Shown here: piece after piece, positions 17,136 through 38,000 of the stretch
Layout of the letters: the number at the start of each line of letters is the position of its first letter
How positions within the stretch are numbered: position 1 is the first letter of the stretch
Source: an uncultured delta proteobacterium
Lineage (GTDB): Bacteria; Myxococcota_A; Polyangia; Polyangiales; B10-G4
DNA length: 64,000 nucleotides
NCBI GenBank assembly: GCA_963727445.1
Contig: CAVSGI010000013.1
Location: 273,316-337,315 of the forward strand
Reading direction: 5' to 3'
Notes under the pieces: generated by a model
Told to the model about the DNA's origin: nothing
Seen by the model: the letters and a program-made list of their open reading frames with translations, nothing else
Database searches by the model: none
Program-made: the position numbers and the translations under genes

Positions 17136-19732
17136 TCAGGCCTTGTCGAAGGTGAACTCTTTTCCGTCGTAGTCGATCTCGACGACGTCGCCGGCGCCGT
17201 AGCCGCCCTTGAGCATCGCTTCGGCCAGCGGGTCCTGCAGGTTCTTGAGGATCACTCGCTTGAGCGGGCGCGCGCCGAAGGCGGGCTCGTAGCCGAGCTC
17301 GACCAGCTGGGTCTTGGCGGCGTCGCTCACGTCGATCTTCACCCGCCGATGCGAGAGCAGGCGTCCGAGGGCGCGCAGCTGGATCTCGACGATCCCGCGG
17401 AGGTGTTCCTTCGAGAGCTGGTTGAAGATCACCGTGTCGTCGATGCGGTTCAAGAACTCCGGGCGGAACGAGCTCTTGAGCGCGCCCTCGACCTTCTCCT
17501 CGAGCTCCTCGGCCGTGCCCTGGTGATCGAGGATGTCGTGACCGCCGACGTTGCTCGTCATGATGATCACCGTATCGGCGAAGTGCGCCAGGCGCCCCCG
17601 CGAGTCCGTGAGGCGACCGTCGTCCAGGACCTGAAGCAGGATGTTGAAGACGTCCGGATGGGCCTTCTCCATCTCGTCGAAGAGGACGACCGAGTAGGGC
17701 CTGCGCCGAACCGCTTCCGTGAGGTAGCCGCCCTGATCGCTGTCGACGTAGCCCGGTGGTGAGCCGAGGAGGCGCGCCACCATGTGCTTCTCCATGAACT
17801 CGCTCATGTCGAGGCGGGTCAGGGAGGCCTCGTCGTCGAAGAGGAACTCGGCGAGCGCCTTGGCGAGCTCGGTCTTGCCGACGCCGGTGGGGCCGAGGAA
17901 GAGGAAGGAGCCGATGGGCCGGCGGGGATCGCGAAGGCCCACCCGACCGCGGCGCACCGCCTTGGAGACGGCGACCACCGCCCTGTCCTGGCCGATGACC
18001 CGCTCGCGCAGGCGATCCTCCATCTCGAGGAGCTTCGCGGTCTCCTCCTGGAGCATCTTCGCGACCGGCACCCCGGTCCAGACCGCGACCACGTCCGCGA
18101 GGTCTTCGGGCTGCACGGTGTCGTGCACCATCGAGCCGCTCGAGGACTCGAGCTTGGCCTCGGCCTCGGCGAGCTGCTTCTCGAGGAGCGGCAACGTGCC
18201 GAAGCGGAGCTCGCCCGCGCGATCGTGATCGTCGGCGGCGCGGGCGCCCTCGTGCTCGCGGCGGGCTGCGGCGAGCTCCTCCTTGAGGCGGCGCACTTCG
18301 CTCAAGGTCTCGAGCTCCTTCTCCCATTCGGCGCGCATCGCCTTGGCGCGCGGCTCGAGGTCCGCCGCCTCCTTGGCGAGCTGCTCGCTGGTGTGAAGCG
18401 ACTCGTCGTCCTGGTCGTCCTCGAGGCTCTTGCGCTGGATGGCGATGTCCTCGAGGCGCCGCTCGAGGCGGTCGAGCTCGGCCGGCACGCTGTCGGTCTC
18501 GACGCGCACCCGCGCCGCCGCTTCGTCGATGAGATCGATGGCGCTCTTCGGGAGCTGCACGCCCTGAACGTAGCGCCGGGCGAAGCGCACCGCGCTCACC
18601 AGCGCCGGGTCGGAGATGCGCACCCCGTGAGCGATCTCGAAGCTGTTCACCACGCCGCGAAGGACGGCGATCGCCTCTTCGATGGTGGGCGGCTCGATGT
18701 CGATGGCGACGAAACGGCGCGCGATCTCCGCGTCCTCGTCGGACAACTTGCGGACCTCATCGGGTGTCGCTTTCGCGATCACCCGGAGCTCCCCGCGCTC
18801 GAGGGCCGCCGCCAGCATGCCACCCGCGCCCCCCGAGGCCTTGTCGCCGCTGAGCGCCGAGAGGTTCGGCAGATAGAGGATGACCTCGCCTCCCGAGTCT
18901 CGGATCGCGTCGAGGATGCTGCGCATGCGCTCCTCGAGCTGGCCGCGGAGCTTCGCGCCGGCGACAAGCGACGCCATCTCGAGAGCGACGATGCGCTTGT
19001 CCTCGAGGAACTTGGGCACGTCGCCTGCGGCGATGCGCTGCGCGAGGGCCTGCACGATGGTGCCGCGACCGATGCCCGCCTCGCCGACGAGGAGCGGGTT
19101 GTTCTCGCGGCGGCGCGCGAGGATCTGAAGGATGCGACGCAGCTCGGCGTCGCGGCCGACGGTGGGATCGAACTTGCCGGCGGCCGCCATGCGGGTGAGG
19201 TCGCGCCCGAACTGCTCGAGGGGATCGCCGCCGTCGCTCGCCGCCGCGGACTTGGTCGGCCGCTTCTGCGCCGGTGCCTCTTCTTTGGTCACGTCCGCGC
19301 CGCCGATGGTGGCGCGGAGCAGCGGAGCGCTCAGCCCGCACGCGGAGAGCACGGTCTTCACCGGACCGTCGGTCTCCTGCGAGCACGCGAGGAGCAGTGA
19401 ATCCACCGAGACCGGATGACCGCCGTTGCGCGCGGCCTCGCCCTCGGCGCGAGAAGAAGGTCGAGGAGGCGCGGCGACAGATAGGCCACCGCGTCGGGCA
19501 GCCGCGCGAGCCGGCGCACCTGCGCCTCGCACTCCACCAGGACGTCCGCCGGATCGACACCCGCGCGACGGACCGCCTCCTGCGGACCGGTCTCGCGCTC
19601 CATCAGTCGGTACAACACGTGGAGCGGCTCGACCTCGGTGTTCTCCCGGTCGTCAGCGAGGGTCTGCGCGCCGGCGATCACCTGCCGCGCGTCCTTGGCG
19701 TAGGCCTCCAGCCTCAGGGTCAGGGTGCTCAT
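17136..19732 (-). CDS. clpB: ClpB-family AAA+ disaggregase paralog. It has the Clp N-domain, a first ATPase domain (NBD1) with degenerate Walker A, Walker B and pore loop, the M-domain coiled coil, and a canonical second ATPase domain (NBD2). There is an apparent -1 frameshift in the N-domain near 19450-19470.
   Basis: Two ORFs (19358..19732 and 17136..19532) overlap in different frames. NBD2 reads 'LFLGPTGVGKTELAKALA...VVLFDEMEKAHPDVFNILLQVLDDGRLTD'. NBD1 reads 'GEAGIGRGTIVQALAQ' and 'VILYLPNLSALSG'. Confidence 0.8.
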
Positions 19733-19810
19733 AGGGGGCGGAGTGTACGCGATCTCCGGGGGCGGAGGGCGGAGGCCGGAGCGGAGGCTGTGGTGTTGCG
19801 CGAAGCGCGT

Positions 19811-20326
19811 TCAGGTCGGTTCCGAGGCGTAGGCCATCCAGCGGGCGGCGAAGCGGATGGTGGTGGGCTCGCGGCTCTCGGGAAAGCGCCACGTGCTCAC
19901 CTCCTTGATCACGCACTCGGCGAGCGCCGGCGCTTCGGGGCCTTCGAAGACGACCTCGTCGGGGGCGCCATCGGGCGTGAGCACCACGACCACCGATGCG
20001 TCCCAGGTGGCTTTGGGGTCGGGAATGTGGGGGCGGCACGCGTCGATCTCGTGGCGATGACGGCGGATGGCGGCGCGCACCAGCCGGCGATCCGGATGCC
20101 GCGGCAGCGTGTCGTGGACGTAGACGGTGGGAACGGCCTCGGTGGGGGGCGGTGGGGCCGGCTGCTGCTCGGCGGCGGCGCTCAAGATCGCCACCTCGGT
20201 CAGAGCGACCGCCGCCGTCGCGTTCGGGTCTCTCGTCAGCGCAGCGGTGAGCATCGTCGCGCAGCCGGAGTTGCCGACGATCGTGAACATCGACAATGCG
20301 TAGAGGATGAGGTGTTTCGCGGTCAC
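19811..20326 (-). CDS. Lipoprotein with a TonB/AgmX-C-terminal-like domain, hypothetical.
   Basis: GTG at 20326, VTAKHLILYALSMFTIVGNSGC. C-terminus '...VVVVLTPDGAPDEVVFEGPEAPALAECVIKEVSTWRFP'. Confidence 0.4.
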   Translation of the reverse strand: MTAKHLILYALSMFTIVGNSGCATMLTAALTRDPNATAAVALTEVAILSAAAEQQPAPPPPTEAVPTVYVHDTLPRHPDRRLVRAAIRRHRHEIDACRPHIPDPKATWDASVVVVLTPDGAPDEVVFEGPEAPALAECVIKEVSTWRFPESREPTTIRFAARWMAYASEPT

Positions 20327-20460
20327 GCGGCGAGCTACAGCAAGCGTCGCGCCAGGGCAGATCTCGTCGAATTCATCGCCATTCCACGGCCTCTCCGTGA
20401 ACCAGCGGCGTCGACCGTGATGAATCGGCACAGGCCCTCGCCGCGGCGACGACGGAGACG

Positions 20461-21534
20461 TCAGTGGTTCCAGCGGCTGTGCCGGCTGTGCCGCTTCGCC
20501 TCGCGCACCATTCTCAGCATCATCGCGTCGACCCGGGCGCGCATCTCAGCGGCGACCATCGCGTCGAGGGCGCCGGTCTCGACCAGCGTCGTGTTGATGG
20601 CGGCTTCTCCCACGTACTCACCGTGCGCGGCGAAGTGCGCGTCAGCGGCTGCGTTTTCGGCCGCGCGCGCGGCGCGCAGGAAGGGCTCGTGCTCACCACC
20701 GTCGAGGAAGAGCCCACCACAGCAGTTGGCGCGGTCGACTTCGATGGGGCCGGCGATGAAGTCCACGTCGAAGACCTCCATCACCTCCCCACAGCGAGGA
20801 CAGCGAAGCGACGAGACGCCCCGCGAGCGAGCGGCGCCCGGTCCCACGCCGAAGAGCACGGCGGTCGGCACACCTTTGGCGTCGACCTCCGGGGCGTCGA
20901 GGAACATCGAGCCACACTGGGGGCAGACGTCGATCTCCATCCCGTCCTGCCGGTCGGCGCGATAGTTCGCGTGGCAACGGGGACAGCGGCGCTCGCTGGG
21001 CGCGGCGGCGTTCAGGCGATATGGGGTCGAGGGCCGGCCTCGCGGAGGCGGCGACTGCGCGAGACGGCGGAGCGACGCGCCGAAGGCCTCGCCGCCGGGC
21101 GGCGGAGGCGCGGCGAAGGTAGCGCCCGATGCGGTGGTGACGACGCGCTTCGCGGGCGCGGCCTCTTCGGCCGCCATCGCGGCGAGACGCCCGGCGCGCT
21201 GGGCGGCCGCGAGCAGCGGCGTGCTCTCTCCGGGGTCGAGGTAGATGCCACCGCAGCACTCGGCGCGCTCGACGGTCAGGGCGCCGCTGGGCGCGATCAC
21301 GCGGTACGAGGTCATCGCCCCACCGTGAACCGGGCACTTCCGCATGGAGGGCCCGAGCGCCGAGCCGCTCCCCGGGCCTCCGCCGAAGAGAAGACCTACG
21401 TCCGCGTCTGCCTCCGCGGCGTCCTCGGAGCTCAGGAACACTCCGCCGCAGGCAGCGCAGGTGTCGTAGACCACCCCGGAAAGCGGAGCGCGAGTGGTCT
21501 CGGAACCACAGCCAGCGCAAATCCCCACGCCCAA
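20461..21534 (-). CDS. Protein with three zinc-ribbon repeats (TFIIB-type zf, 'C..C...CCGG[IL][FY]LD').
   Basis: Three repeats of CxxC-(n)-CCGGxxLD separated by Ala/Pro-rich linkers. 357 aa. Confidence 0.6.
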   Translation of the reverse strand: MGVGICAGCGSETTRAPLSGVVYDTCAACGGVFLSSEDAAEADADVGLLFGGGPGSGSALGPSMRKCPVHGGAMTSYRVIAPSGALTVERAECCGGIYLDPGESTPLLAAAQRAGRLAAMAAEEAAPAKRVVTTASGATFAAPPPPGGEAFGASLRRLAQSPPPRGRPSTPYRLNAAAPSERRCPRCHANYRADRQDGMEIDVCPQCGSMFLDAPEVDAKGVPTAVLFGVGPGAARSRGVSSLRCPRCGEVMEVFDVDFIAGPIEVDRANCCGGLFLDGGEHEPFLRAARAAENAAADAHFAAHGEYVGEAAINTTLVETGALDAMVAAEMRARVDAMMLRMVREAKRHSRHSRWNH

Positions 21535-21582
21535 GAGCCTGCCAGCATCAGCCTTCGGATGCGAGCCATGTATGCTTGTGAC

Positions 21583-22998
21583 ATGGGGGCGTCGACCGGC
21601 GCGAAATGCATCGTCCTTGCCGCGGCGGTCTCGCTGCTCGCGGGCTGCGATGGCGATCCGTCGGTGCTGGCGGTCGACGTGCGGACGGATCTCGTGCCGG
21701 GCGTGGAGTTCACGCGGGTGCGTTCGGCGCTGGATAGCGGCGGGCCGGGGATGATCACGATGGATGCCGCCTCGGCCATCGACCAGGACTTCGTGGCTGG
21801 ACAGAGAGTGGCGGAATACGAGGCGCTATCCGCTGGCACCTATCGGCTGGTGGTGGAGCTCCTCGAAGCCGATGGACGCGTGGCGCTCTCCCGGCCGGTG
21901 TCGGTGACCTTCGACGGCACGTCCCTCGGGGTCACGGTGGTGCTCACGCGCGACTGCCGCGGCGTCGTCTGCCCGGAGGGCGGCGATCCGTCGGCCACCG
22001 CCTGCCTCGGCGGACGGTGCGTGTCGCCCGAGTGCTCCGCTGAGCAGCTCGAGCGCTGCGGAACGCCCGAGTGCACTGCGATCGCCGAGTGTCCGTTGGG
22101 CGCCGCGTGCGCGAGCGTGTCCTGTGAGAGCGGTGCGTGTCTCCTCGCGCCGCGAAACGACCAATGCGCCGCGAGCGAGTACTGCGATCCCGAAGTCGGC
22201 TGTCGGCCACGCCCCGGCGCCGGGGACTCGGGACCCTCCGACGGGGGCACCGACGCCGACGCCGCGCCCGACGGCAGCATCGATGCGGGCCCGACCGACG
22301 CGGCCGTCGACTCCGCCCTTCCGGACGGCGATGCGGGGAGCTCGCTCTTCATGGTCGACATGTCCGGCGGCGATGTCGTGATCACTTCGCCAGGCCGCTT
22401 CACCCTCGCCTTCGAGGGCGGACATCGCTACCAAACGGGCGCCTGGTACGACCTCGCTTCGAGCGCAGGCGACGACCTCGGTGGGATCTCCGGCGACTCC
22501 ATGCTGCGTCGACGGACCTTCCAGACGCCGATTGGCTTTCACGCCAGTGGCGCCTGGTACCGCATCGACACCGCTGGCGGCGAGCTCGTCAGCGTCGACA
22601 CGCCGATGCCGGACGTGATCGTCCTGACGAGCCGCCTGACCTGGACCATCCCCGGCGGCGAAGCCGAGGCGCTGGTCACGAATCGGATCTCCATCGACGG
22701 GCACTGGCAGGTCACGGTGGAGCTGAGCGCCACGGCATCCATCAGCGTCGACGCGGTCGAATACGCCTTCACCAGCGTGGACCGCGCCCCCACCTGGGAC
22801 GAGGTCGATACCGCCGACTCTTTCACCTTCACCCGCACGGACGTCACCCCTCCGCCGAGCATCAGCGTGACCAAGATGGCCAGCCAGCCCGGGGCCTGGG
22901 CCACCAACTTCCCCGGCTACAACGCGTACTTCGAAGCGAGCTCCGCGGGAGACCCCTCGACCACCCCCCTCGTCCTCGACTGGGAAAATCAGATCTAG
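21583..22998 (+). CDS. Lipoprotein, hypothetical, with a Cys-rich EGF-like segment.
   Basis: ATG at 21583, MGASTGAKCIVLAAAVSLLAGC|DGD. The 5' 370 codons of the 844-aa six-frame ORF are antisense to the zinc-ribbon gene. Confidence 0.55.
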   Translation: MGASTGAKCIVLAAAVSLLAGCDGDPSVLAVDVRTDLVPGVEFTRVRSALDSGGPGMITMDAASAIDQDFVAGQRVAEYEALSAGTYRLVVELLEADGRVALSRPVSVTFDGTSLGVTVVLTRDCRGVVCPEGGDPSATACLGGRCVSPECSAEQLERCGTPECTAIAECPLGAACASVSCESGACLLAPRNDQCAASEYCDPEVGCRPRPGAGDSGPSDGGTDADAAPDGSIDAGPTDAAVDSALPDGDAGSSLFMVDMSGGDVVITSPGRFTLAFEGGHRYQTGAWYDLASSAGDDLGGISGDSMLRRRTFQTPIGFHASGAWYRIDTAGGELVSVDTPMPDVIVLTSRLTWTIPGGEAEALVTNRISIDGHWQVTVELSATASISVDAVEYAFTSVDRAPTWDEVDTADSFTFTRTDVTPPPSISVTKMASQPGAWATNFPGYNAYFEASSAGDPSTTPLVLDWENQI

Positions 22999-24675: not shown

Positions 24676-24972
24676 TCAGCCCTTCGCCTTGGCGACGTAG
24701 CGAAGCTTGAGGTCGGCGAGGACCTGCGTGAGCAGGCGCTCTTCCTCGCCGTCGAGATTGCCCTGCGTCTTCTCTTCGATGAGCTGCAAGAGATCGATGC
24801 TCTGACGCGCGAGGCCGAGGTTGACCTGACCACCCTCGGGGTGCGCCGCCTCGCCGAGGTGCGCGAGCGCGCTCGTGCTCAGCGAGAGGATGAAGGTGGT
24901 GAAGTCGATCGGCGGAACGTCTTCGCCGTCGGGAGAGGGGAGCGGGGCCTCGTCCTTCGCGTCCTCCGACAC
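24676..24972 (-). CDS. DUF1844-like small protein.
   Basis: 'IDFTTFILSLSTSALAHLGE' matches the DUF1844 core. Confidence 0.55.
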   Translation of the reverse strand: MSEDAKDEAPLPSPDGEDVPPIDFTTFILSLSTSALAHLGEAAHPEGGQVNLGLARQSIDLLQLIEEKTQGNLDGEEERLLTQVLADLKLRYVAKAKG

Positions 24973-24973
24973 G

Positions 24974-25192
24974 TCAGGCCTCGCTCGGCTCGGCGGGCGC
25001 GGCGGCGGCGGCGGCGGGGGTCGAAGCGGCCTCCTCCTCCTCGGGGGGTGCGAAGTCGATCACCTCGGCGTTGTCCTCCACGTCCTTCAGGCCGCCGAGG
25101 TGCTTGTCGTACTCCTCACGCGAGATCAGCCCTTTTTTGATGTTCCGGTCGACGGTCCGCTTGTCGAATAGGGAGTCTCGGTTGTCCACCAT
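24974..25192 (-). CDS. Small acidic protein, hypothetical. 1-nt gap to the DUF1844 gene.
   Basis: 72-aa ORF, MVDNRDSLFDKRTVDRNIKKGLISREEYDKHLGGLKDVEDN..., then a low-complexity Ala/Glu tail. Confidence 0.4.
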   Translation of the reverse strand: MVDNRDSLFDKRTVDRNIKKGLISREEYDKHLGGLKDVEDNAEVIDFAPPEEEEAASTPAAAAAAPAEPSEA

Positions 25193-25888: not shown

Positions 25889-27394
25889 ATGCCCGACAGC
25901 GTGCTCCCCAGCCTCGATCAGATCCGAGATCTGGAGATCCTGATCAAGGCGCACCACCCGTTGATCCTCATCGAGACCATCGAAGAGGATCGGGTCGGCA
26001 CGCTCATCGAGTACCTCGCCGACCGGCTGAAGCTGCCCCTCTACACCTGGACGGCGCACCGCGGCCTCTCCACCGCCGAGGGTCCGCCCCTGGCGGGAAC
26101 CGACGCCGCCGACCGCATGCTCGACTTCGTGGCCCAGAGCAACGCCGAAGCGCTCTATCACCTCCGCGGTTTCACGCCGGCCTTCACGGACCCGCCGCTG
26201 GTGGCGCGCCTCAAGGATCTCTACAAGCAGCTCTTCGCCCACCGGGGCGCGCTGATCATGACTGGGGTGGACGCGAGCCCGTCGCCGGACCTCGAAGCGC
26301 TCTTCACGGTGGTGGACCTCGAGCCGCCGACGCCCCACGCGTATTACCAGTTCGTCTCCAACGTCCTTCGCGACCTTCGAAAGCGCATGGAGATCCAGGT
26401 CGACCTCTCGGGCGAGGACGTGGCGGTGCTGCTGAGCCACCTGCGCGGGCTGACGTTCTTCGAGGTGAAGAAGATCGTGACCCAGGCGGTGATCGAGGAT
26501 GGGCGCCTCGACCGCAGCGACATCGAGAAGGTGCTCGAAGCCAAGAAGCGCGCGATCCAGCGCTCGGGCGTCCTCGACTACTACCCGGCCGACCAGAGCC
26601 TCGGCGACCTGGCCGGCCTCGACAACCTCAAGACCTGGCTCCGCAAGCGGAAGAACGCCTTCGCCAACCCCGACGAGGCCAAACGCTTCGGCCTGAGCGC
26701 GCCCAAAGGGCTGTTGCTGCTGGGGGTGCAGGGCTGCGGCAAGAGCATGTGCGCCAAGGCGGTCGCCGCGGAATGGCAACTGCCGCTGATCCGCCTCGAC
26801 CCGAGCTCGCTCTACAACAAGTTCGTGGGCGAGTCGGAGAAGAACCTGATGCGGGCGATCAAGACCGCCGAGCAGATGGCGCCCATCGTCTTGTGGATCG
26901 ACGAGATTGAGAAGGCCTTCGGCGGTCAGGAGGGCTCCGGGAGCGACTCGGGCACCACCAGCCGCATCTTCGGCACGTTCCTGACGTGGCTCAACGACAA
27001 GAAGGAGAGCGTCTTCGTCATCGCCACGGCGAACGACATCTCGCGCCTGCCGCCCGAGCTCCTTCGCAAGGGCCGCTTCGACGAAATCTTCTTCGTGGAC
27101 CTGCCCGACGCCGAGACCCGCGCCCGCATCTTCGCCGTGCATCTGAGCCGCCGCGATCGGGCGCCGGAGGGCTTCGATCTCGAGGCGCTGGCGGCCGCGA
27201 CCGAAGGCTTCAGCGGTGCGGAGATCGAGCAGGTGGTGATCAGCGCGCTCTACACCGCCTTCAGCGATGGCCGTGCGCTCGACGACGTGCTGCTCCTCGA
27301 AGAGGCGCGCGGCACCCGGCCACTGTCGGTGACCATGGGCGAAAAGATCGCCGAGCTCCGCGCCTGGGCGGAGGACCGCGCCGTCCCCGCCTGA
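25889..27394 (+). CDS. AAA family ATPase (Ycf46-like: N-terminal domain plus a C-terminal classic-clade AAA module).
   Basis: Walker A '[15 protein letters not shown]', Walker B '[12 protein letters not shown]', second region of homology '[25 protein letters not shown]'. Confidence 0.8.
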
Positions 27395-32006: not shown

Positions 32007-35000
32007 TCAGAACAAGCCGATCGAGAAGTGGAAAGTGCCGACCGGCTCCTGGAGCTGCTGGCGGCGCAGGAGGATCAGGCCGTAGTCGAGGGCGAGGGGA
32101 CCGACCGGGGTCTTGACCCGGAGCCCGACGCCCGCGGTGGGGCGCAGGGCGAAGAGGTCGAAGAACTGGGGGTCGGACCAGAGGTTGCCGAGGTCGGTGA
32201 AGATGCCGCCGTAGATCGGGCCGAAGATGGGGAAGCGCAGCTCGCCCCGAAAGAGGATGAAGGTGTCGCCGGCGCGGACGACGTCGGTGCTCCTGAGGTT
32301 GTCGGGGTCGGCGGCGATGGCGTCGGCCTTGTCCTGCGGGATCATCGCGTCCTGGTAGTAGCCGCGCATGGTCTCGACGCCGCCGAGGTAGTAGCTGCGG
32401 TTCGGGTAGGTGCGCGAGGTGTTCGTCAGGTGGAAGACGCGGCCGTACCGCGCCGAGATCGCGAAGACCACGTTGCCGAAGAGCGGGATGTAGCCGCGGG
32501 TGTTGAAGGTGAGCTTGATGAAGTTGCTCTCGAAGGGTTGCATCATCGGGCCCTGCGGCTGGGAGGCGAGGGTCACGGCGTACTCGCCGGTGACGGATCC
32601 GAAGAACCCGGCGCTCGGATCGAGGGGGTTGTCGCGGAGGTCGACCGCGAGAGTGAGGGGGAAGGCGAGGATGGTGGACTCGCCATCGGGCACGCGAAGG
32701 AGGCGGACCAGGCGCTGATTCACCATGCCCGACGCCATCATCATCATCAGATAGTCTTCGAGGTTCTGATTGTCGGTGAAGAGCTGGACGTTCGAGTTCT
32801 CGAGGTTCGCCGCGCCGGAGATCGACAGCTCCCGGAACGCGTGCCAGCTCGCGGTCAGGCTGACGCCGTTGTCGTCGATGCCGAAGTCGAACTCGTTGTT
32901 GCGGCGGTGATAGACGTTGAGCCCGAGGCGCACGTTCTCGAGGCCGGGGATGTGGGGCACCGAGAAGCCCACCGCGACGTTGCGCTCGATGCGGTCCTGC
33001 AGGCTGAGCCGCTCGTAGCGTTGCTGCAGGATGGGGTTCACGAAGATGAACTGGAAGCCAAGCTGCACGCCGACGGTGGTGGTGACGCCGTAGCCGAAGA
33101 GGTTGCGGTAGCCGTACTCGAAGCCGCCGCGCAGACCCTGGCCGGTGGAAAAGCCCAGGGTGAAGTCGAGGTACTGGGGCTTGCGCTCGGCGACGGTGAC
33201 CACCACGTCCTTGACCCGCGCCGGCAGGTCGGGCTCCGAAACGCCGATGTTCACCCCGGAAAAGACGCCGATCTCCAGGAGCCGCTCCTGGCTCTCGCGG
33301 GCGAGAGAGGGCCGGTAGAGCTCGTCGGGCACGAGGACCATGCGATCACGGATCAGCGTCTCGCTGGTGTTCGCCGCGCCCCGGATGATCACCCGCCCGA
33401 CGCGCACCTCGTAGGCCTCGACCACGGTGATGGAGACCTCGGCGCGGGTGCGATCCTCGGAGTAGAGGATGGTCGGCTCGACGCGGACGAAGAGGAAGCC
33501 GTGCTCCTGATAGAGGTCCACGATGCGCAGGCGCGCCTCCTCGAGCGCCAGCGGTGAGAAGGGCTGACCGCGGGTGAGCTCGGCCGCGACGAGGATCTCC
33601 CGCATGGTGAGCGCTTCGTTCCCTTCGACGCTCACCTCTTGCAGCATCGTCTGCGGGCCTTCGCTCACCGGGATCTCGACGCGGGCGGTGCCGTTGTCGC
33701 CGCGCGTCATCTCTATCGGTCCCAGGGAGACGGAGAGGTATCCGTCGAGGGAGTAGAGCTCGTTCAACGACTCGAGCCCGGCCTCGTAGGTGGGCTCGTA
33801 GAAGACGGTGTGGGGATTGGAGTCGAGCGGCGCCGACGTCTGGCGTCTTCGCGGCTGGCTGTAGCGAAAGGTCGAGTCGACGATGGATGTGTCGACGGGC
33901 TCGATGGGCTCGGCCCGGGGCAGATCGTCGTCCAGGTAGCCCTGGAGCTCCGAGCGCAGCCGCTCCTCGTCGAAGTGATGCGCCCCGGGAAAGGAGAGCT
34001 CGACGACGCGCAGGGGCTCGCCCGGCTCCGCCACGATGTCGAGGTAAGCGGAGCCCGGTTCGGGGCCGGCGACACGCCTCACGGTGGCGCTGGCATCGTA
34101 GAAGCCGTGTCGCTGGTAGACGTCCACCACACGCTCCCGGATGCCCTCGACCAAGGCGTCGGTGAGCGGCTCCTCGCCCAGCTCGAGCACCGCCTCCAGC
34201 TCGCTGCGCTCGATCGGCGCGATGTGGCGGTAACGCACCTGGTAGCGGGGCCCGGGGCGCGAGGGGATGGAGACGATGACGCCGCCCCCGACCGCGCGCG
34301 CCACGATCGCGGGGCCCAGCTCCGCCTCGAGCCAGCCTCGCGCCCGCATCTCGAGCTCGGTCTCGCGGATCGACTCGGCGATGGCGTCGCGATCCAGGAT
34401 GTCGCCCACGTCGAAGTCCAGACCGCTGGCGGCGCCGCTCGCGGGCGGCGGCGACTCGCCCTGGAACTGCACGCGCGCGATGCGCGTGGGCGCGCCCTCG
34501 TGAACGACGATGCGCATCACCTTGCGGCTGGGGTCGTCGGTGTCGCGAACGATCACCTCGATCCGCGTGTCCTCGTAGCCGATCTTCGCGTAGGCCTCGG
34601 AAGCGGCGGTGACGGCTTCGTCGATGGTGTCCTCGAGGAGCTCGCTGCCCGAGCTGATCGCCACCGTACGGAGCAGGTCGGCGTCGGAGATCTCGTCGTT
34701 GCCTCGCACCTCGACCCGCGAAAGGATCACCACCGGTACCAGGTGCGCGACGACCTTCACGCCGCCCTGCACCCCGACCAGATCGAGCTGGACGTCGCGC
34801 CACCGGCCGCTGTTCGCGAGGCGACGGATCGTGCTGCGCAGGAGGCGCCGGCTCAGGGGCACACCGAGGGGGATGCCGACGTCGCGCGGCGAGGTGATCC
34901 CCGCGGTCTCACCCGCGATCTCCACGTCGACCACCCGCCTGTCTCGGAGCTCGACCGGTACCTGTGCGCGTGCGCCGCTCGTCGTCAGAAAGACGAAGGC

Positions 35001-35042
35001 GAGGACAATCGCGCGGCATATCACTCGAATTCCAGGCGCCAA
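32007..35042 (-). CDS. tamA: Omp85-family outer-membrane protein assembly/translocation factor (TamA/BamA-like, multiple POTRA domains plus beta-barrel).
   Basis: 1011 aa, signal peptide, POTRA-like repeats. C-terminal barrel ends '...FHFSIGLF'. 22-nt overlap with upstream tamB. Confidence 0.75.
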   Translation of the reverse strand: MAPGIRVICRAIVLAFVFLTTSGARAQVPVELRDRRVVDVEIAGETAGITSPRDVGIPLGVPLSRRLLRSTIRRLANSGRWRDVQLDLVGVQGGVKVVAHLVPVVILSRVEVRGNDEISDADLLRTVAISSGSELLEDTIDEAVTAASEAYAKIGYEDTRIEVIVRDTDDPSRKVMRIVVHEGAPTRIARVQFQGESPPPASGAASGLDFDVGDILDRDAIAESIRETELEMRARGWLEAELGPAIVARAVGGGVIVSIPSRPGPRYQVRYRHIAPIERSELEAVLELGEEPLTDALVEGIRERVVDVYQRHGFYDASATVRRVAGPEPGSAYLDIVAEPGEPLRVVELSFPGAHHFDEERLRSELQGYLDDDLPRAEPIEPVDTSIVDSTFRYSQPRRRQTSAPLDSNPHTVFYEPTYEAGLESLNELYSLDGYLSVSLGPIEMTRGDNGTARVEIPVSEGPQTMLQEVSVEGNEALTMREILVAAELTRGQPFSPLALEEARLRIVDLYQEHGFLFVRVEPTILYSEDRTRAEVSITVVEAYEVRVGRVIIRGAANTSETLIRDRMVLVPDELYRPSLARESQERLLEIGVFSGVNIGVSEPDLPARVKDVVVTVAERKPQYLDFTLGFSTGQGLRGGFEYGYRNLFGYGVTTTVGVQLGFQFIFVNPILQQRYERLSLQDRIERNVAVGFSVPHIPGLENVRLGLNVYHRRNNEFDFGIDDNGVSLTASWHAFRELSISGAANLENSNVQLFTDNQNLEDYLMMMMASGMVNQRLVRLLRVPDGESTILAFPLTLAVDLRDNPLDPSAGFFGSVTGEYAVTLASQPQGPMMQPFESNFIKLTFNTRGYIPLFGNVVFAISARYGRVFHLTNTSRTYPNRSYYLGGVETMRGYYQDAMIPQDKADAIAADPDNLRSTDVVRAGDTFILFRGELRFPIFGPIYGGIFTDLGNLWSDPQFFDLFALRPTAGVGLRVKTPVGPLALDYGLILLRRQQLQEPVGTFHFSIGLF

Positions 35043-38000
35043 TGGAGATCGACGCCCACGTTACCCAAACTCGAGGCCGTCGTGGTGTTGTAGTTGTCGT
35101 AGACGGCCTGAACGCTGGTCTGTTCGCCGAGGCGCCACTCCACGCTGGCGCGCACCTCGCTCGACGCGCTGATGCCGGTCGAGGCGGTGAGGCGCACTCG
35201 GTCGCTGATGCGCTTGCCCACCGTGACCTGGGGCTCGGTGCGGTTCGTGCGCCGGCTGTAGCGCGACGAGACCGAGAAGTCGTCGATCACCGGCAGCGCC
35301 CGCTGGACCTCCCGGTCGATGCCGGTGACGGCGGCCAGCGCCTCCACGGCCAGCGTGCTCCCGACGTCGCCCGCCTGGAGCTGCTCGAGCTCGGCGCTGG
35401 TCATGCCAATGGTGAGGAGCAGGACGATGTCCTCCTGGCTCAGCTCGGGATCGGAGTGGGTGTCGAGCTGGAAGTTGTCGCTGTTGCCGGTGGCGTCGAG
35501 GGTGATCCGCCAGTTGGGAGCCGACAGGTTGCTGGCGCGGCGCACGTCGGCCACGGCGGTCACCGCGAAGTTGGGATCGACCCGGTAGGGATCGTCGAAC
35601 TCGATGGTGCCCCGGCGGACGTCGAACTCCTTGTTGCGGAAGTAGATGACGCCGCGCGGAATGTCGAGGTTGCCGATGGCGCCGAAGCGCTGGTCGGTGC
35701 CGACGATGCGGAAGGGACGCTCCGAGTCCTCGATGCGCACCTCGGCGTCGATCAGGTTGTTCTGGACGCGCATCGGCGTCGCCTCGACCAGGCGCACGTC
35801 GAGCTCGAGATGATCCTCGTCGGGATCGTACTGCTCGATGTTGGTCCGCCCGGGTCGGCCACTCATGCCTTCGCGCGCCGCCGCACCGACCATGGCCGCG
35901 ATCTGGATCGGCTTCTCGTAGGAGACGCGCTCCAGGCGCACCGTGCCCGTGAGCCGGGGAAGCCGCTGCCCCGACGTCCACCCGAGGTGAGCGAGCCCGC
36001 CGAAGGTCACGTCGACGTCGCGGTCGGGGTGCAGGGTGACCTCGCGCGCCTCGACGTCGAAGTCGTAGCGATCGAGGCCGCGACCCTCGAGGGTGGCCGC
36101 GCCGCTGAGCGCGAGGTGGCCACCCGCCATCTCCGCGTTGAAGCCTTCGAAGAGGATCCGCCGGGCGCTGAAGGTGATCTCGCCATCGAGGTCCGTGAGG
36201 GGGTCGCTCATCCCGGCGTAGCGGAAGCTGCCGTCGCGGACGGTGGCGCGCCCGTAGATGCCCGGCGCCTCGAAGGGCCCCGTGACGTTGACCTGAGCGG
36301 CGATGGTCCCGCCCGCCTGGGTGAGGTTGGGGGAGAGGCTCGCGAGGAAGGACAGGTCGAGGTCACCCGCCACCTCGAGGGCGAGGCCGCGTTCGTTGCT
36401 GCCGCCGCCGGTGATGCGAACCGTGGAGGAGGGGCCCGCGAGGCGCGCGCGGTCCACCGTGAAATCGCCCCGATGGAGGCTGACCTCGAGCGGTCCCTCG
36501 TTGCGCAGGCGAACGTCGCCCTGGCCGACGTCGAGCTCACGCACCACGAGCGCCCCGGATAGGCTGTCGTGATCGATCATCGAGCCGCCGGTCAGGGCCA
36601 GCTTCGCGCTGAGGCGCCCGCTGAGTGGATCGTTGCGATCGACCTCTTCGAGGAACGGGTCGAGGGAGAAGCCCGCGAGCTCCACCTCGCCCCGGAGCGG
36701 GAAGGTCATCGTCTTGCCCATCGCCATGTCGACGTGGACCGCGCCGCCCAGACCGTCGCCACAGACGAGGAAAGCGGTGGGCCGCTGAACACGCTGCACC
36801 GGCCCCTCGGGTGTGTCGAAAGGTGGGTCTGCGCGCCAGCGCCCGCGGTAGAGGCCGTTGCGCGCCGCGGCGCAGGGCTCGTCGGGAAGCGCGTCCGGAT
36901 TCCAATCCGCGGCGGCCGTGACCCAGGGGTCCTGGTTGTCCGTGAGTCGCACGTAGAGCCGCGCGTCGCCGAGCATCGACGTCTGCCAGCTGAGCCCCGT
37001 CATCACGACGTCCATGTCCATGCGCGGCAGATCGGTCGTTCCACTGATCTCGCCGAAGACGCTGTAGAACCCTCCGAGGTCGGGGAAGCGGTCGCCGAGG
37101 CCCTCGGTGTCGCGGACCGAGATGCGATCCGCCGACGCCGTCATCGCGAGCGCGCCGTTCAGACCCATCCGGCCGTCGATGGTCACCACGCCTCCGCCCT
37201 TGCGCAGGTGGAAGTGCTCGATGTCCAGCTCGCCCCCTGCCATCCCGCGGCCCGGCTCGAGCCAGTTGAAGTCGGCGCGAAGCTGGCCGTCGGCGAACTG
37301 GTAGTCGCCGATCGACATCTCGATGACGTCGAGATCCATGTTCGCGGTCATCGTTCCGCGCTCGGAGTCGCCGGGATAGCCGAGGGTGTAGTGCAGGAGC
37401 ACGTCGCCGGTGACCAGCCCCTGGTAGTCGGTGAAGCGCTCGTCCTCGTCCCAGTGGAAGACGTCGAAGAAGTCGGCGAGGGTGAGGCGGGCGGCGTTCA
37501 TCCGCGCGTCGACCGCGAAGCCGCCGTTCCGAAAGTCGAGGAAGAGGTCCTCGACGCGGTACTGGCTGTCGTTCTTCTCGGCCTCGAGGACCGGGAAGCG
37601 CACCGCCATCGAGTCCTCTTCGAGATGGAACGTGGTGCTCACGTCGCCGAGGGGATAGGTGTTGAAGGCGAAGCCCTCGATGGACACCTCACCGCCGACA
37701 TCGGGCTCGGAGAACTCGCCGTCCACCTCTACGTTGATGTGCGCCGTGCCCGCCATGGGGATGTCGATCAGGGGCGACGCATCGGCGAGGTTCAGGTTCG
37801 AGCTCTGCACGCTCACCCGAAGCCGATTGTCGAAGCCGAGGAGGACGTCGCCGGTGAGCCGAGACGAAGGCGTGTCCGCGATGATGCGGTTGAAGTAGAG
37901 CCCCTCGGGCCGGATGCGGGTGGTGGTGCGGATGTTCGCGCGGGTCACGCCGATGATCCGTTGCTGTGGCTCGACGTGATAGGCGTCCTCCGTGACGAGG

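What the first reader, a model, noticed from the sequence alone, without database searches (positions are those of the whole stretch)
17136..19732. ClpB paralog with a catalytically dead first ATPase domain (NBD1) but canonical second (NBD2), plus a frameshift in the N-domain
Compared with canonical ClpB, NBD1 reads GEAGIGRGTIV in place of the GEPGVGKTAIV Walker A, so the Lys is lost. The Walker B region is VILYLPNLSALSG versus ILFIDELHTMVGAG, so DE becomes PN. The pore loop is AGAKLRGQLEER versus AGAKYRGEFEER, so Tyr becomes Leu. NBD2 is textbook (GPTGVGKTELAKALA, LFDEMEKAHPDVFN, pore loop GSPPGYVD). The N-domain and the M-domain coiled coil are retained. Three independent substitutions at exactly the three functional NBD1 elements look like a pseudo-ATPase domain rather than random decay. 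Separately, the N-domain is split across frames at ~19450-19470: ...YLSPRLLDLL | AEGEAARNGGHPVSVDSLLLAC. Either this is a regulatory or holdase-type ClpB variant worth characterising, or the gene is degenerating.
Basis: partly seen in the sequence, partly recalled or inferred. Interest (0 to 1): 0.6.

Follow-up and report, generated by a model that had tools for sequence, protein, structure and literature searches.

The report
ClpB-like chaperone with dead first motor
This gene encodes a ClpB-type protein-unfolding chaperone whose first ATP-burning domain has lost its catalytic residues. The same loss is found, under strong selection, in this gene's relatives across a whole group of myxobacteria, so it looks like a natural one-motor variant and not a decaying gene.

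Summary
Window 17136-19732 (minus strand) encodes a full ClpB architecture: N-domain, NBD1, long M coiled coil, NBD2 and C-terminal domain. NBD1 reads GEAGIGRGT (Walker A), LPN (Walker B) and KLR (pore loop). The catalytic motifs of NBD2 are intact.

This is not random decay.
- In 121 relatives (63-94% identical; Sandaracinaceae/Polyangiales, including Sandaracinus amylolyticus), pore-loop Tyr is Leu in 119 and Walker B Asp is Pro in 110. The catalytic Glu is kept in only 16 of 121 (Asp in 89).
- The Walker A Lys position is only ever K or R.
- All eight NBD2 catalytic residues are invariant.
- NBD1 is as constrained as NBD2: dN/dS 0.08-0.10 against 0.07-0.09.

The family fails NCBI's ClpB equivalog cutoff (about 970 bits against 1232). 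I found no paper describing it.

The frameshift is a single missing base at 19454/19455 in a CT tract. All relatives are intact there, and the repaired protein shows no sign of decay. It is most likely an assembly error or a very recent mutation.

Whether a canonical clpB coexists in these genomes ("paralog") could not be tested.

Best reading: NBD1 is a hydrolysis-dead ring that probably still binds nucleotide and serves a structural or regulatory role, and NBD2 is the sole motor. Moderately interesting: a new variant of a known kind.

The parts
17136..19732 (-). Complete ClpB-like gene. It encodes 865 aa once one base is restored. As assembled, it is interrupted by a 1-nt deletion.
   Evidence: The match to TIGR03346 ClpB runs end to end. 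It is collinear with E. coli ClpB with only small indels and no ClpP-binding loop.
19455..19732 (-). N-terminal coding segment (aa 1-93, first half of the Clp_N domain), read in the frame of the ATG at 19732.
   Evidence: It aligns to residues 1-88 of intact orthologues in frame -1.
19454..19455 (-). Frameshift site. One base is missing relative to all orthologues, probably the C of CTC in CTT-CTC-TCT.
   Evidence: DNA alignments and tblastn frame split.
17136..19454 (-). Remainder of the gene (aa 94-865) in the second frame: second half of the N-domain, NBD1, M-domain, NBD2 and D2-small domain.
19053..19085 (-). NBD1 Walker A, GEAGIGRGTIV (K212R, T213G in E. coli numbering).
18927..18962 (-). 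NBD1 pore loop, AGAKLRGQLEER (Y251L).
18846..18884 (-). NBD1 Walker B strand, VILYLPNLSALSG (D278P, E279N).
   Evidence: The AF2 model keeps a beta-strand here (E284-288).
18702..18782 (-). NBD1 sensor-1 (VIAKATPDEV; T315 kept, T314A) and Arg-finger pair (EIARRFVAI; R331 and R332 kept; Q334V is a family signature).
18519..18557 (-). NBD1 lid motif QLPKSAIDLIDEA. Canonical LPDKAIDL has become LPKSAIDL (D388K, K389S), a conserved family signature.
18114..18512 (-). M-domain coiled coil, full length (about 122 aa). K476 is kept; Y503F and E432D.
   Evidence: Long helices 418-530 in the AF2 model.
17850..17894 (-). NBD2 Walker A, GPTGVGKTELAKALA (canonical).
17739..17765 (-). NBD2 pore loop, GSPPGYVDS. 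Tyr is kept. The GYVDS flank is a family signature (G655D in 100%).
17643..17690 (-). NBD2 Walker B, VVLFDEMEKAHPDVFN (canonical DE).
17256..17276 (-). NBD2 sensor-2, GARPLKR (R815 kept).
19742..19747 (-). TACACT, a -10-like hexamer ending 9 nt before the ATG. This is a possible promoter for a leaderless or near-leaderless mRNA (inferred only).
   Evidence: A TANNNT box at this position occurs in 23/48 orthologue upstreams; shuffles give 1.9. The strict sigma-70 scan found nothing.

Best explanation
The gene belongs to a vertically inherited, previously undescribed subfamily of ClpB-type Hsp100 chaperones in Polyangia myxobacteria (Sandaracinaceae and relatives).

Shown:
- The protein keeps the whole ClpB body plan and a fully canonical second ATPase ring.
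- The first ring has lost the catalytic Glu, the Mg-binding Asp and the pore-loop Tyr. In this sub-lineage it has also lost the Walker A Lys and Thr.
- NBD1 is nevertheless under the same purifying selection as NBD2.

Inferred mechanism:
- The protein still forms a two-tier hexamer.
- NBD1 acts as a non-hydrolysing assembly and regulatory ring that carries the M-domain. In most members it probably still binds nucleotide; in this sub-lineage possibly without Mg, or not at all.
- Substrate threading is powered only by NBD2, whose pore-loop Tyr provides the grip.
- The conserved M-domain suggests that activity is still gated, probably by DnaK.

The single-base deletion in the N-domain is most likely an assembly or sequencing error, or a very recent lesion. 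It is not part of the biology of the family.
For: Architecture:
- Pfam finds AAA_lid_9, AAA_2 and ClpB_D2-small.
- TIGR03346 ClpB is the best match and runs end to end.
- The best solved relatives are ClpB 1qvr, 6dju and 6oax.
- The AF2 model has pLDDT 86 and superposes on E. coli ClpB 4ciu at TM 0.92, rmsd 3.1 A.
- There is no ClpP loop.

Conserved degeneration (121 sequences):
- Y251L in 119; D278P in 110; E279 kept as E in only 16 (D in 89).
- K212 is K in 81 and R in 40.
- NBD2 residues K611, T612, Y653, D677, E678, N719, R756 and R815 are invariant.

Divergence is specific to NBD1:
- 14 of 83 canonically invariant NBD1 positions are replaced in the family, against 2 of 70 in NBD2.
- NBD1 is 46% identical to E. 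coli; canonical ClpBs have a median of 63%. N, M and NBD2 are typical.

Selection:
- Within-clade identity is 0.72 for NBD1 and 0.78 for NBD2.
- dN/dS is 0.08-0.10 for NBD1 and 0.07-0.09 for NBD2.

Residual nucleotide or phosphate handling:
- Position 212 is only K or R in 183 sequences, with at least 13 switches on a tree.
- Position 213 is free, with 8 residue types.
- Arg fingers are kept in 111 and 117 of 121, and sensor-1 Thr in 114 of 121.
- Arg fingers couple nucleotide binding to oligomerisation in ClpB (PMC4239642 abstract).

NBD2 as the motor: in E. coli ClpB, AAA2 is the main motor, Y653 is essential, and Y251A and AAA1 defects are partly tolerated, especially when the protein is derepressed (PMC6593972).

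Core-gene status: synteny TamB-BamA-DUF4442-...-AAA-DUF1844-...-clpB-like-...-cNMP-Mur ligase-IMPase is shared with several relatives.

Frameshift:
- It is unique to the window.
- The repaired protein has 0 unique changes at columns that are at least 97% conserved.
- Only 1 of about 14 syntenic genes is split.
Against: - No biochemical data exist. Hexamer formation, nucleotide binding by NBD1 and disaggregase activity are all inferred.
- In E. coli, Walker B and Arg-finger mutations in AAA1 strongly reduce disaggregation, so a one-motor ClpB is not obviously competent without compensating changes.
- In this sub-lineage (window, P0001-P0003) K212R, T213G and E279N/S together remove every usual Mg and gamma-phosphate ligand. 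Nucleotide binding may therefore be gone here.
- The frameshift could be real. No reads were available, and the short-read contigs of the same strain stop before the site.
Confidence: 0.6

Rival explanations
1. This particular copy is a real, recently inactivated pseudogene, or an N-terminally truncated allele. The 1-nt deletion exists in the organism, and the cell makes no product, or only a product lacking the first half of the N-domain.
For: - The deletion is in the assembled sequence.
- The site is a short CT tract and not a long homopolymer, so it is not a classic homopolymer error.
- The rest of the compared region (about 14 genes) has no other split gene, so the assembly is not generally error-ridden.
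Against: - No second lesion is present. There are 0 unique substitutions at conserved columns, and dN/dS against the nearest relatives is about 0.1.
- The 124-aa N-terminal fragment ORF is not on record, although near-identical contigs of the same population are.
- Indel disagreements between assemblies of this population exist: BamA reads CCCC in one and CCC in the other.
- Two long-read MAG loci of the family (L049, L068) also carry frameshifts.
- None of 63 metagenome loci does.
Confidence: 0.25
2. The protein is a pseudoenzyme subunit that does not work alone. It co-assembles with a canonical ClpB encoded elsewhere into mixed hexamers and tunes their activity. It is a regulatory paralog.
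For: - The NBD1 interface elements are conserved, including the Arg fingers.
- ClpB scaffold geometry is retained.
- Known precedent from my own knowledge: AAA+ hetero-hexamers with inactive rings, such as Pex1/Pex6.
Against: - The presence of a canonical ClpB in these genomes was not established.
- NBD2 is fully catalytic and invariant, which fits an autonomous motor.
- The N-domain and M-domain have diverged as a family-specific set: N is 38-50% identical within the wider family and 16-27% to canonical ClpBs. That argues against tight co-assembly.
Confidence: 0.15
3. NBD1 is still a working ATPase that uses non-canonical residues. For example, the Asp at position 279 could bind Mg and another residue could act as the base, with Arg substituting for Lys.
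For: - An acidic residue sits at position 279 in 105 of 121 sequences. Position 212 is always K or R. Sensor-1 and the Arg fingers are kept.
- New residues have become conserved: P278, K388, S389 and V334.
Against: - No candidate catalytic Glu is conserved.
- T213, the Mg ligand, varies freely.
- The window sub-lineage has N or S at 279 and G at 213, yet shows the same constraint.
- From general knowledge of P-loop ATPases, Walker A K->R and loss of the Walker B Glu abolish hydrolysis.
Confidence: 0.12
4. The whole gene family is decaying: relaxed selection after duplication.
For: Several canonically invariant NBD1 positions have become variable (217, 281, 300, 301, 313, 319).
Against: - dN/dS in NBD1 is about 0.1.
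- Mean NBD1 identity is 72% across at least 121 clusters.
- Full-length ORFs occur in over 140 independent loci.
- Synteny is conserved.
Confidence: 0.03

Closest known systems
Canonical bacterial ClpB (TIGR03346; E. coli ClpB, T. thermophilus ClpB 1qvr)
   Same: - Same domain order and lengths: two-lobed N-domain, NBD1, about 120-aa M coiled coil, NBD2 and D2-small domain. No ClpP-binding loop.
- NBD2 catalytic set is identical.
- M-domain K476 is kept, and Y503 is conservatively replaced by F.
- The AF2 model matches 4ciu at TM 0.92.
   Different: - NBD1 lacks Walker B D/E and the pore-loop Tyr. In a third of members, including this one, it also lacks the Walker A Lys.
- 14 of 83 invariant NBD1 positions are replaced.
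- Lid motif LPDKAIDL has become LPKSAIDL, and NBD2 pore flank GYVGY has become GYVDS.
- The score is about 970 bits, below the 1232-bit equivalog cutoff.
E. coli ClpB AAA1 mutants (E279A, R331A, Y251A) studied in PMC6593972
   Same: These are engineered equivalents of the natural substitutions. They show that AAA2 is the main motor and that AAA1 and pore-loop-1 defects are partly tolerated.
   Different: The mutants are impaired unless derepressed. The natural family has had long co-evolution, with many additional NBD1 changes, and has not been tested.
Human CLPB/Skd3
   Same: A disaggregase that works with a single ClpB-NBD2-type ATPase ring (PMC7343390 abstract). NBD2 of the window protein matches it (8zr0/7ttr, residues 565-741).
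   Different: Skd3 has ankyrin repeats in place of NBD1 and has no M-domain. The present family keeps a folded, constrained NBD1 and the M-domain.
Apicoplast ClpM (Plasmodium)
   Same: [quoted passage not shown]
   Different: ClpM is ClpC-like, organelle-encoded and eukaryote-associated, with no long ClpB M-domain. It is an unrelated, independent degeneration.
ClpV/TssH, ClpA/ClpC, ClpG/ClpK
   Same: Double-ring Hsp100 relatives that are hit by the same search.
   Different: - All score lower than ClpB and far below their own cutoffs: ClpV 664-681 against 885, ClpA 589-616 against 993, ClpG/ClpK about 580-600 against 1900.
- No T6SS genes are nearby.
- There is no IGF/LGF loop.

Membership tests
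ClpB/Hsp104 disaggregase family (architecture) | Domain order: Clp_N, then NBD1 with an inserted long M coiled coil, then NBD2, then D2-small. No ClpP-binding IGF loop. | tested here: met
   alignment 13-863 to model positions 3-852 of 853; M-domain 122 aa.
ClpB equivalog (NCBIfam TIGR03346 / NF008118) | Whole-protein score above the curated cutoff (1232.1 and 1417 bits). | tested here: not met
   P0001 scores 961.8, P0088 985.8 and P0016 974.0 bits. The canonical control P0128 scores 1389.
ClpB/Hsp104 disaggregase family (catalysis) | Walker A GxxGxGK[TS] and Walker B hhhhDE in both NBDs. | tested here: not met
   NBD2 meets the criterion and is invariant in 121/121. NBD1 does not: the window has R-G and P-N, and the clade has D278P in 110/121 and keeps E279 in only 16/121.
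ClpB/Hsp104 disaggregase family (substrate grip) | Aromatic pore-loop residue in both rings (Y251, Y653). | tested here: not met
   Y653 is kept in 121/121. Y251 is Leu in 119/121 and Met in 2.
ClpB/Hsp104 disaggregase family (function) | Hexamer formation and DnaK-dependent disaggregation. | not testable with these tools
   Indirect evidence only: Arg fingers, the M-domain and K476 are conserved.
ClpV/TssH (T6SS ATPase) | Score above the TIGR03345 cutoff, and a T6SS gene neighbourhood. | tested here: not met
   664-681 bits against 885. The neighbours are BamA/TamB, DUF1844, an AAA protein, OsmC, a hydrolase and Mur ligase.
ClpA/ClpC/ClpE (ClpP partners) | IGF/LGF ClpP-docking loop in NBD2; short or absent M-domain. 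| tested here: not met
   No insertion in NBD2 relative to ClpB. The only [ILMV]G[FL] match is VGL at residue 598, upstream of the NBD2 P-loop. The M-domain is full length.
Pseudogene | Relaxed selection (dN/dS near 1), multiple disabling lesions, and loss in relatives. | tested here: not met
   dN/dS is about 0.1. There is a single 1-nt deletion and 0 unique changes at conserved sites. Relatives are intact.
Paralog of a co-resident canonical ClpB | A second, canonical clpB in the same genome. | not testable with these tools
   There is none in the 64-kb window or in any fetched locus. Whole genomes could not be searched, and the one attempt to seed a canonical relative hit Hyphomicrobium.

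The most novel reading that the evidence does not exclude
This family could be the only ClpB of Sandaracinaceae and related Polyangia. That would make it a natural two-ring disaggregase that runs on one motor. NBD1 would be converted into a nucleotide-sensing, non-hydrolysing assembly and regulatory ring, and M-domain/DnaK control would be rewired to act on NBD2 alone.
Probability: 0.3. Interest if true: 0.65.

Novelty: new variant of a known kind. Interest (0 to 1): 0.45.

Why it matters
ClpB and Hsp104 are the textbook two-motor disaggregases, and how the two ATPase rings divide labour is still debated. This lineage spans a whole bacterial class-level group. In it, evolution has switched off hydrolysis and the aromatic grip in ring 1, yet kept that ring, its Arg fingers, a basic P-loop residue and the regulatory M-domain under strong constraint.

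The lineage is therefore a ready-made natural experiment. It can test whether ring 2 alone suffices for disaggregation, what ring 1 contributes apart from hydrolysis, and how M-domain/DnaK control is transmitted.

There is also an annotation consequence. These proteins are variously named ClpB, ClpC-like subunit or 'AAA family ATPase' in public records.

Tried and rejected
1. Canonical clpB in the same genomes. I queried the closest canonical representative (P0128), hoping for Polyangia ClpBs or hits on contigs of 10,327,335 or 9,074,070 bp. It turned out to be Hyphomicrobium. Cluster look-ups of 30 representatives gave almost no taxonomy. The single genome scan returned only family members, because the discriminating peptide was EFMEKHMV.

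2. Source of the window.
- The AAA neighbour, the 124-aa fragment, the lipoprotein and the 206-aa upstream ORF are not on record.
- The DUF4442 and cNMP proteins led to Logan contigs of ERR11594398, which are 99.87% and 99.987% identical to the window.
- Those contigs end at window 17664 and at about 28,000, so the frameshift site was not covered.
- An exact-pattern scan of JGI metagenomes for the site found nothing.

3. Programmed frameshift. Rejected. There is no X XXY YYZ slippery heptamer and no homopolymer at CTTCTTCTC, and every relative encodes the protein in one frame.

4. Heat-shock control elements. No CIRCE or sigma-32 consensus lies upstream in 49 orthologues. The strict sigma-70 and terminator scan found nothing.

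5. ClpV, ClpA/C and ClpG/K membership. Rejected.

6. Literature. Seven searches found no description of a bacterial ClpB with a naturally degenerate NBD1. The ClpI paper and the perchlorate paper were irrelevant.
Full report
**What is in the sequence**

The window is about 69% G+C. On the minus strand, a 798-aa ORF (17136..19532) and a 124-aa ORF (19358..19732) overlap in different frames. A codon-position G+C profile shows uninterrupted coding signal that changes phase at about 19470. Pfam finds AAA_lid_9, AAA_2 and ClpB_D2-small in the long ORF.

Joining the two frames gives an 865-aa protein that starts MSTLTLRLEAY. This protein is collinear with E. coli ClpB. The only indels are small, there is no insertion in NBD2, and there is no IGF/LGF ClpP-docking motif.

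**The frameshift**

Intact relatives read ...YLSPRLLDLLSRAEGEAARNGG.... DNA alignments show exactly one base missing in the window, between 19455 and 19454. The window reads GAC CTT CT- TCT CGC. The three nearest relatives read GAC CTC CTC TCT CGC, GAC TTG CTC TCC CGG and GAT CTC CTC TCC CGC.

Several lines of evidence argue that the gene itself is not decaying:
- The repaired protein has no unique substitution at any column that is at least 97% conserved in 120 relatives. The median for other members is 1 and the maximum is 13.
- Proteins from three syntenic loci were compared with the window by tblastn. Of about 14 genes, only clpB is split.
- None of 63 JGI metagenome loci of the family is split.
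- Two long-read MAG loci (L049, L068) are split.

Attempts to see the site in another assembly of the same strain did not succeed. Short-read (Logan) contigs from run ERR11594398 are 99.87% and 99.987% identical to the window, so they come from the same population. They stop at window 17664 and at about 28,000 and do not reach the site. One of them disagrees with the window by one C in a C-run inside BamA, so indel disagreements between assemblies of this population do occur. The 124-aa fragment ORF is not on record anywhere.

There is no slippery heptamer or homopolymer that would suggest programmed frameshifting.

I conclude that the deletion is an assembly error or a very recent lesion. Reads are needed to decide between these.

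**Is the NBD1 degeneration real and selected?**

A search of 5.8 billion proteins returned 120 cluster representatives that are 63-94% identical to the query. All come from Sandaracinaceae, Polyangiales or Myxococcota MAGs, plus Sandaracinus amylolyticus. Aligned with E. coli ClpB, the 121 sequences show the following.

| Position (E. coli numbering) | State in 121 sequences |
|---|---|
| Y251 (pore loop 1) | Leu in 119, Met in 2 |
| D278 (Walker B) | Pro in 110 |
| E279 (Walker B) | Asp 89, Glu 16, Gly 7, Asn 4, Ser 4 |
| K212 (Walker A) | Lys 81, Arg 40 |
| T315 (sensor-1) | kept in 114 |
| R331 / R332 (Arg fingers) | kept in 111 / 117 |
| K611, T612, Y653, D677, E678, N719, R756, R815 (NBD2) | invariant in all 121 |

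The window and its three closest relatives (P0001-P0003) form the most degenerate sub-lineage, reading GIGRG plus LPN or LPS.

The divergence is specific to NBD1:
- Mean within-clade identity is 0.72 for NBD1 and 0.78 for NBD2.
- Nei-Gojobori dN/dS against the two nearest relatives with DNA available is 0.084 and 0.098 for NBD1, and 0.092 and 0.067 for NBD2. dS is 0.5-0.9, which is high but not saturated.
- Relative to 83 canonical representatives, 14 of 83 invariant NBD1 positions are replaced in at least 90% of the clade. In NBD2 the figure is 2 of 70.
- Several replacements are newly fixed: P278, V334, K388, S389, L255 and E199.
- NBD1 is 46% identical to E. coli. Canonical ClpBs have a median of 63%. 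N, M and NBD2 are as similar to E. coli as those of any canonical ClpB.

This is a selected pseudo-catalytic domain and not decay.

**Wider family**

A full HMMER scan of 1.84 billion representatives and a neighbour-joining tree place the window in a group of about 19 clusters (at 50% identity). All of them share the NBD2 pore flank GY(V/A/Q)DS or a close variant, and all have some form of NBD1 degeneration.

A scan of one genome per GTDB species found 80 loci, all in Polyangia-type MAGs. They fall into three groups:
- The full-length 'P-D/E/N' type.
- An 'ED' type, with GVGKRT, IEDLH and SRLF.
- An M-domain-less type of about 737 aa, with GTGRT and LPNL.

Across 183 family sequences, the Walker A Lys position is only ever K (133) or R (50), with at least 13 switches on a tree. 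The adjacent Mg-ligand position takes eight different residues. A strictly basic residue, the conserved P-loop glycines, sensor-1 and the Arg fingers together argue that the site still binds an anion, most plausibly nucleotide, while Mg-dependent hydrolysis has been abandoned.

**Classification**

NCBIfam's best hit is ClpB (TIGR03346), aligned end to end. The scores of 962-986 bits are well below the 1232-bit equivalog cutoff; a canonical control scores 1389. ClpV, ClpA, ClpG and ClpK score lower still and are far below their own cutoffs.

The best solved relatives are ClpB from T. thermophilus, M. tuberculosis and E. coli. An AlphaFold2 model of P0001 (94% identical to the repaired window protein) has mean pLDDT 86. 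NBD1 scores 81-91 and has the expected strand order. The model superposes on E. coli ClpB 4ciu at TM 0.92 and 3.1 A. The M-domain is full length, with K476 kept and Y503F.

**Genomic context**

The gene sits in a conserved core-chromosome neighbourhood shared with relatives: TamB, BamA, DUF4442, beta-lactamase-like, GDSL lipase, an AAA protein, DUF1844..., clpB-like..., cNMP-binding protein, Mur ligase, inositol monophosphatase. There are no T6SS, ClpP or mobile-element genes nearby.

No CIRCE or sigma-32 consensus is found upstream in 49 orthologues. About half of the orthologues carry a -10-like TANNNT box ending 4-14 nt before the ATG: 23 of 48, against 1.9 in shuffles. This hints at a housekeeping-type promoter and a leaderless mRNA.

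**Mechanism (inference)**

In E. coli ClpB, AAA2 is the main threading motor and Y653 is essential. Y251A and AAA1 hydrolysis defects are partly tolerated, especially when the M-domain is derepressed (PMC6593972). The NBD1 Arg fingers couple nucleotide binding to oligomerisation (PMC4239642). Human Skd3 disaggregates with a single NBD2-type ring (PMC7343390).

The most economical model is therefore a ClpB-like hexamer in which NBD1 is a non-hydrolysing assembly and regulatory ring that carries the M-domain, and NBD2 alone drives threading.

The rivals are a real null allele for this copy, a regulatory subunit of mixed hexamers with a canonical ClpB, and a non-canonical but active NBD1. They are weighed in the rival-explanations section of this report.

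**What could not be settled**

I could not determine whether a canonical clpB coexists in these genomes. There is none in the window or in any fetched locus. My one seeded search landed in Hyphomicrobium. The word 'paralog' is therefore unproven.

**Novelty**

Seven literature searches found no description of a bacterial ClpB with a naturally degenerate NBD1. The nearest precedent within Hsp100 is the apicoplast ClpM D1. Public records name these proteins inconsistently.

Verdict: a real and conserved feature, a new variant of a known kind, of moderate interest. Interest would be higher if it proves to be the only ClpB of the lineage.

Noticed in passing
window 19742-19747 (-), and upstream of the gene in loci L001-L059: A -10-like TANNNT box (mostly TATCCT or TATGCT; TACACT in the window) ends 4-14 nt before the start codon in 23 of 48 orthologues; shuffles give a mean of 1.9 and a maximum of 6. 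Some orthologues also have TTGAC(G) about 35 nt upstream. This suggests a sigma-70-type promoter and a leaderless mRNA. No CIRCE or sigma-32 motif was found.
   Followed up: partly
L060-L083 and L115-L146 (e.g. CP070650.1, CP070713.1): A sister subfamily of about 737 aa lacks the whole M-domain but has the same kind of degenerate NBD1 (GTGRT, LPNL, KLR) and the GYVDS pore flank. It includes MAGs with small complete chromosomes (2.8-3.5 Mb).
   Followed up: partly
L048, L050, L054, L057, L059, L085, L104-L107: A second sister group, 51-54% identical to the window protein, has a different degeneration pattern: Walker A GVGKRT, Walker B IEDLH (some IDEIH or VDDLH), and Arg-finger pair RR changed to RL. 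NBD1 inactivation therefore took several independent routes in the family.
   Followed up: partly
window 33917-33920 vs L086 (Logan ERR11594398): A short-read contig of the same population (99.87% identical) has CCC where the window has CCCC. That splits BamA into 419 + 586 aa in the contig, while the window's BamA (32007-35060) is intact. This is a one-base disagreement between assemblies in an essential gene.
   Followed up: partly
L049 (CAWHLB010000027.1) and L068 (CAVQUI010000004.1): Two long-read MAG loci of the same gene family also show frame breaks within the ClpB-like gene. This is consistent with assembly indels in this type of data.
   Followed up: no
window 25889-27394 (+) and 24676-24975 (-): A 501-aa AAA protein (PF00004 + AAA_lid_3, with an uncharacterised N-terminal segment of about 270 aa) and a DUF1844 protein are conserved neighbours of the ClpB-like gene in every relative inspected.
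   Followed up: no
window 19811-22998: Three genes lie between the DUF1844/MopE-like genes and clpB that are absent at this position in L002 and L004: a 206-aa protein with a lipoprotein-like signal, a 357-aa protein with three TFIIB-type zinc ribbons, and a 479-aa Cys-rich lipoprotein with no Pfam hit.
   Followed up: no
representatives P0132, P0126, P0170, P0134, P0160: Pore-loop-1 Tyr to Leu also occurs in other Hsp100 lineages whose Walker motifs are intact. One of these (P0132) is annotated as T6SS TssH in a deltaproteobacterial MAG. Y251L alone is therefore not diagnostic of a dead NBD1.
   Followed up: no
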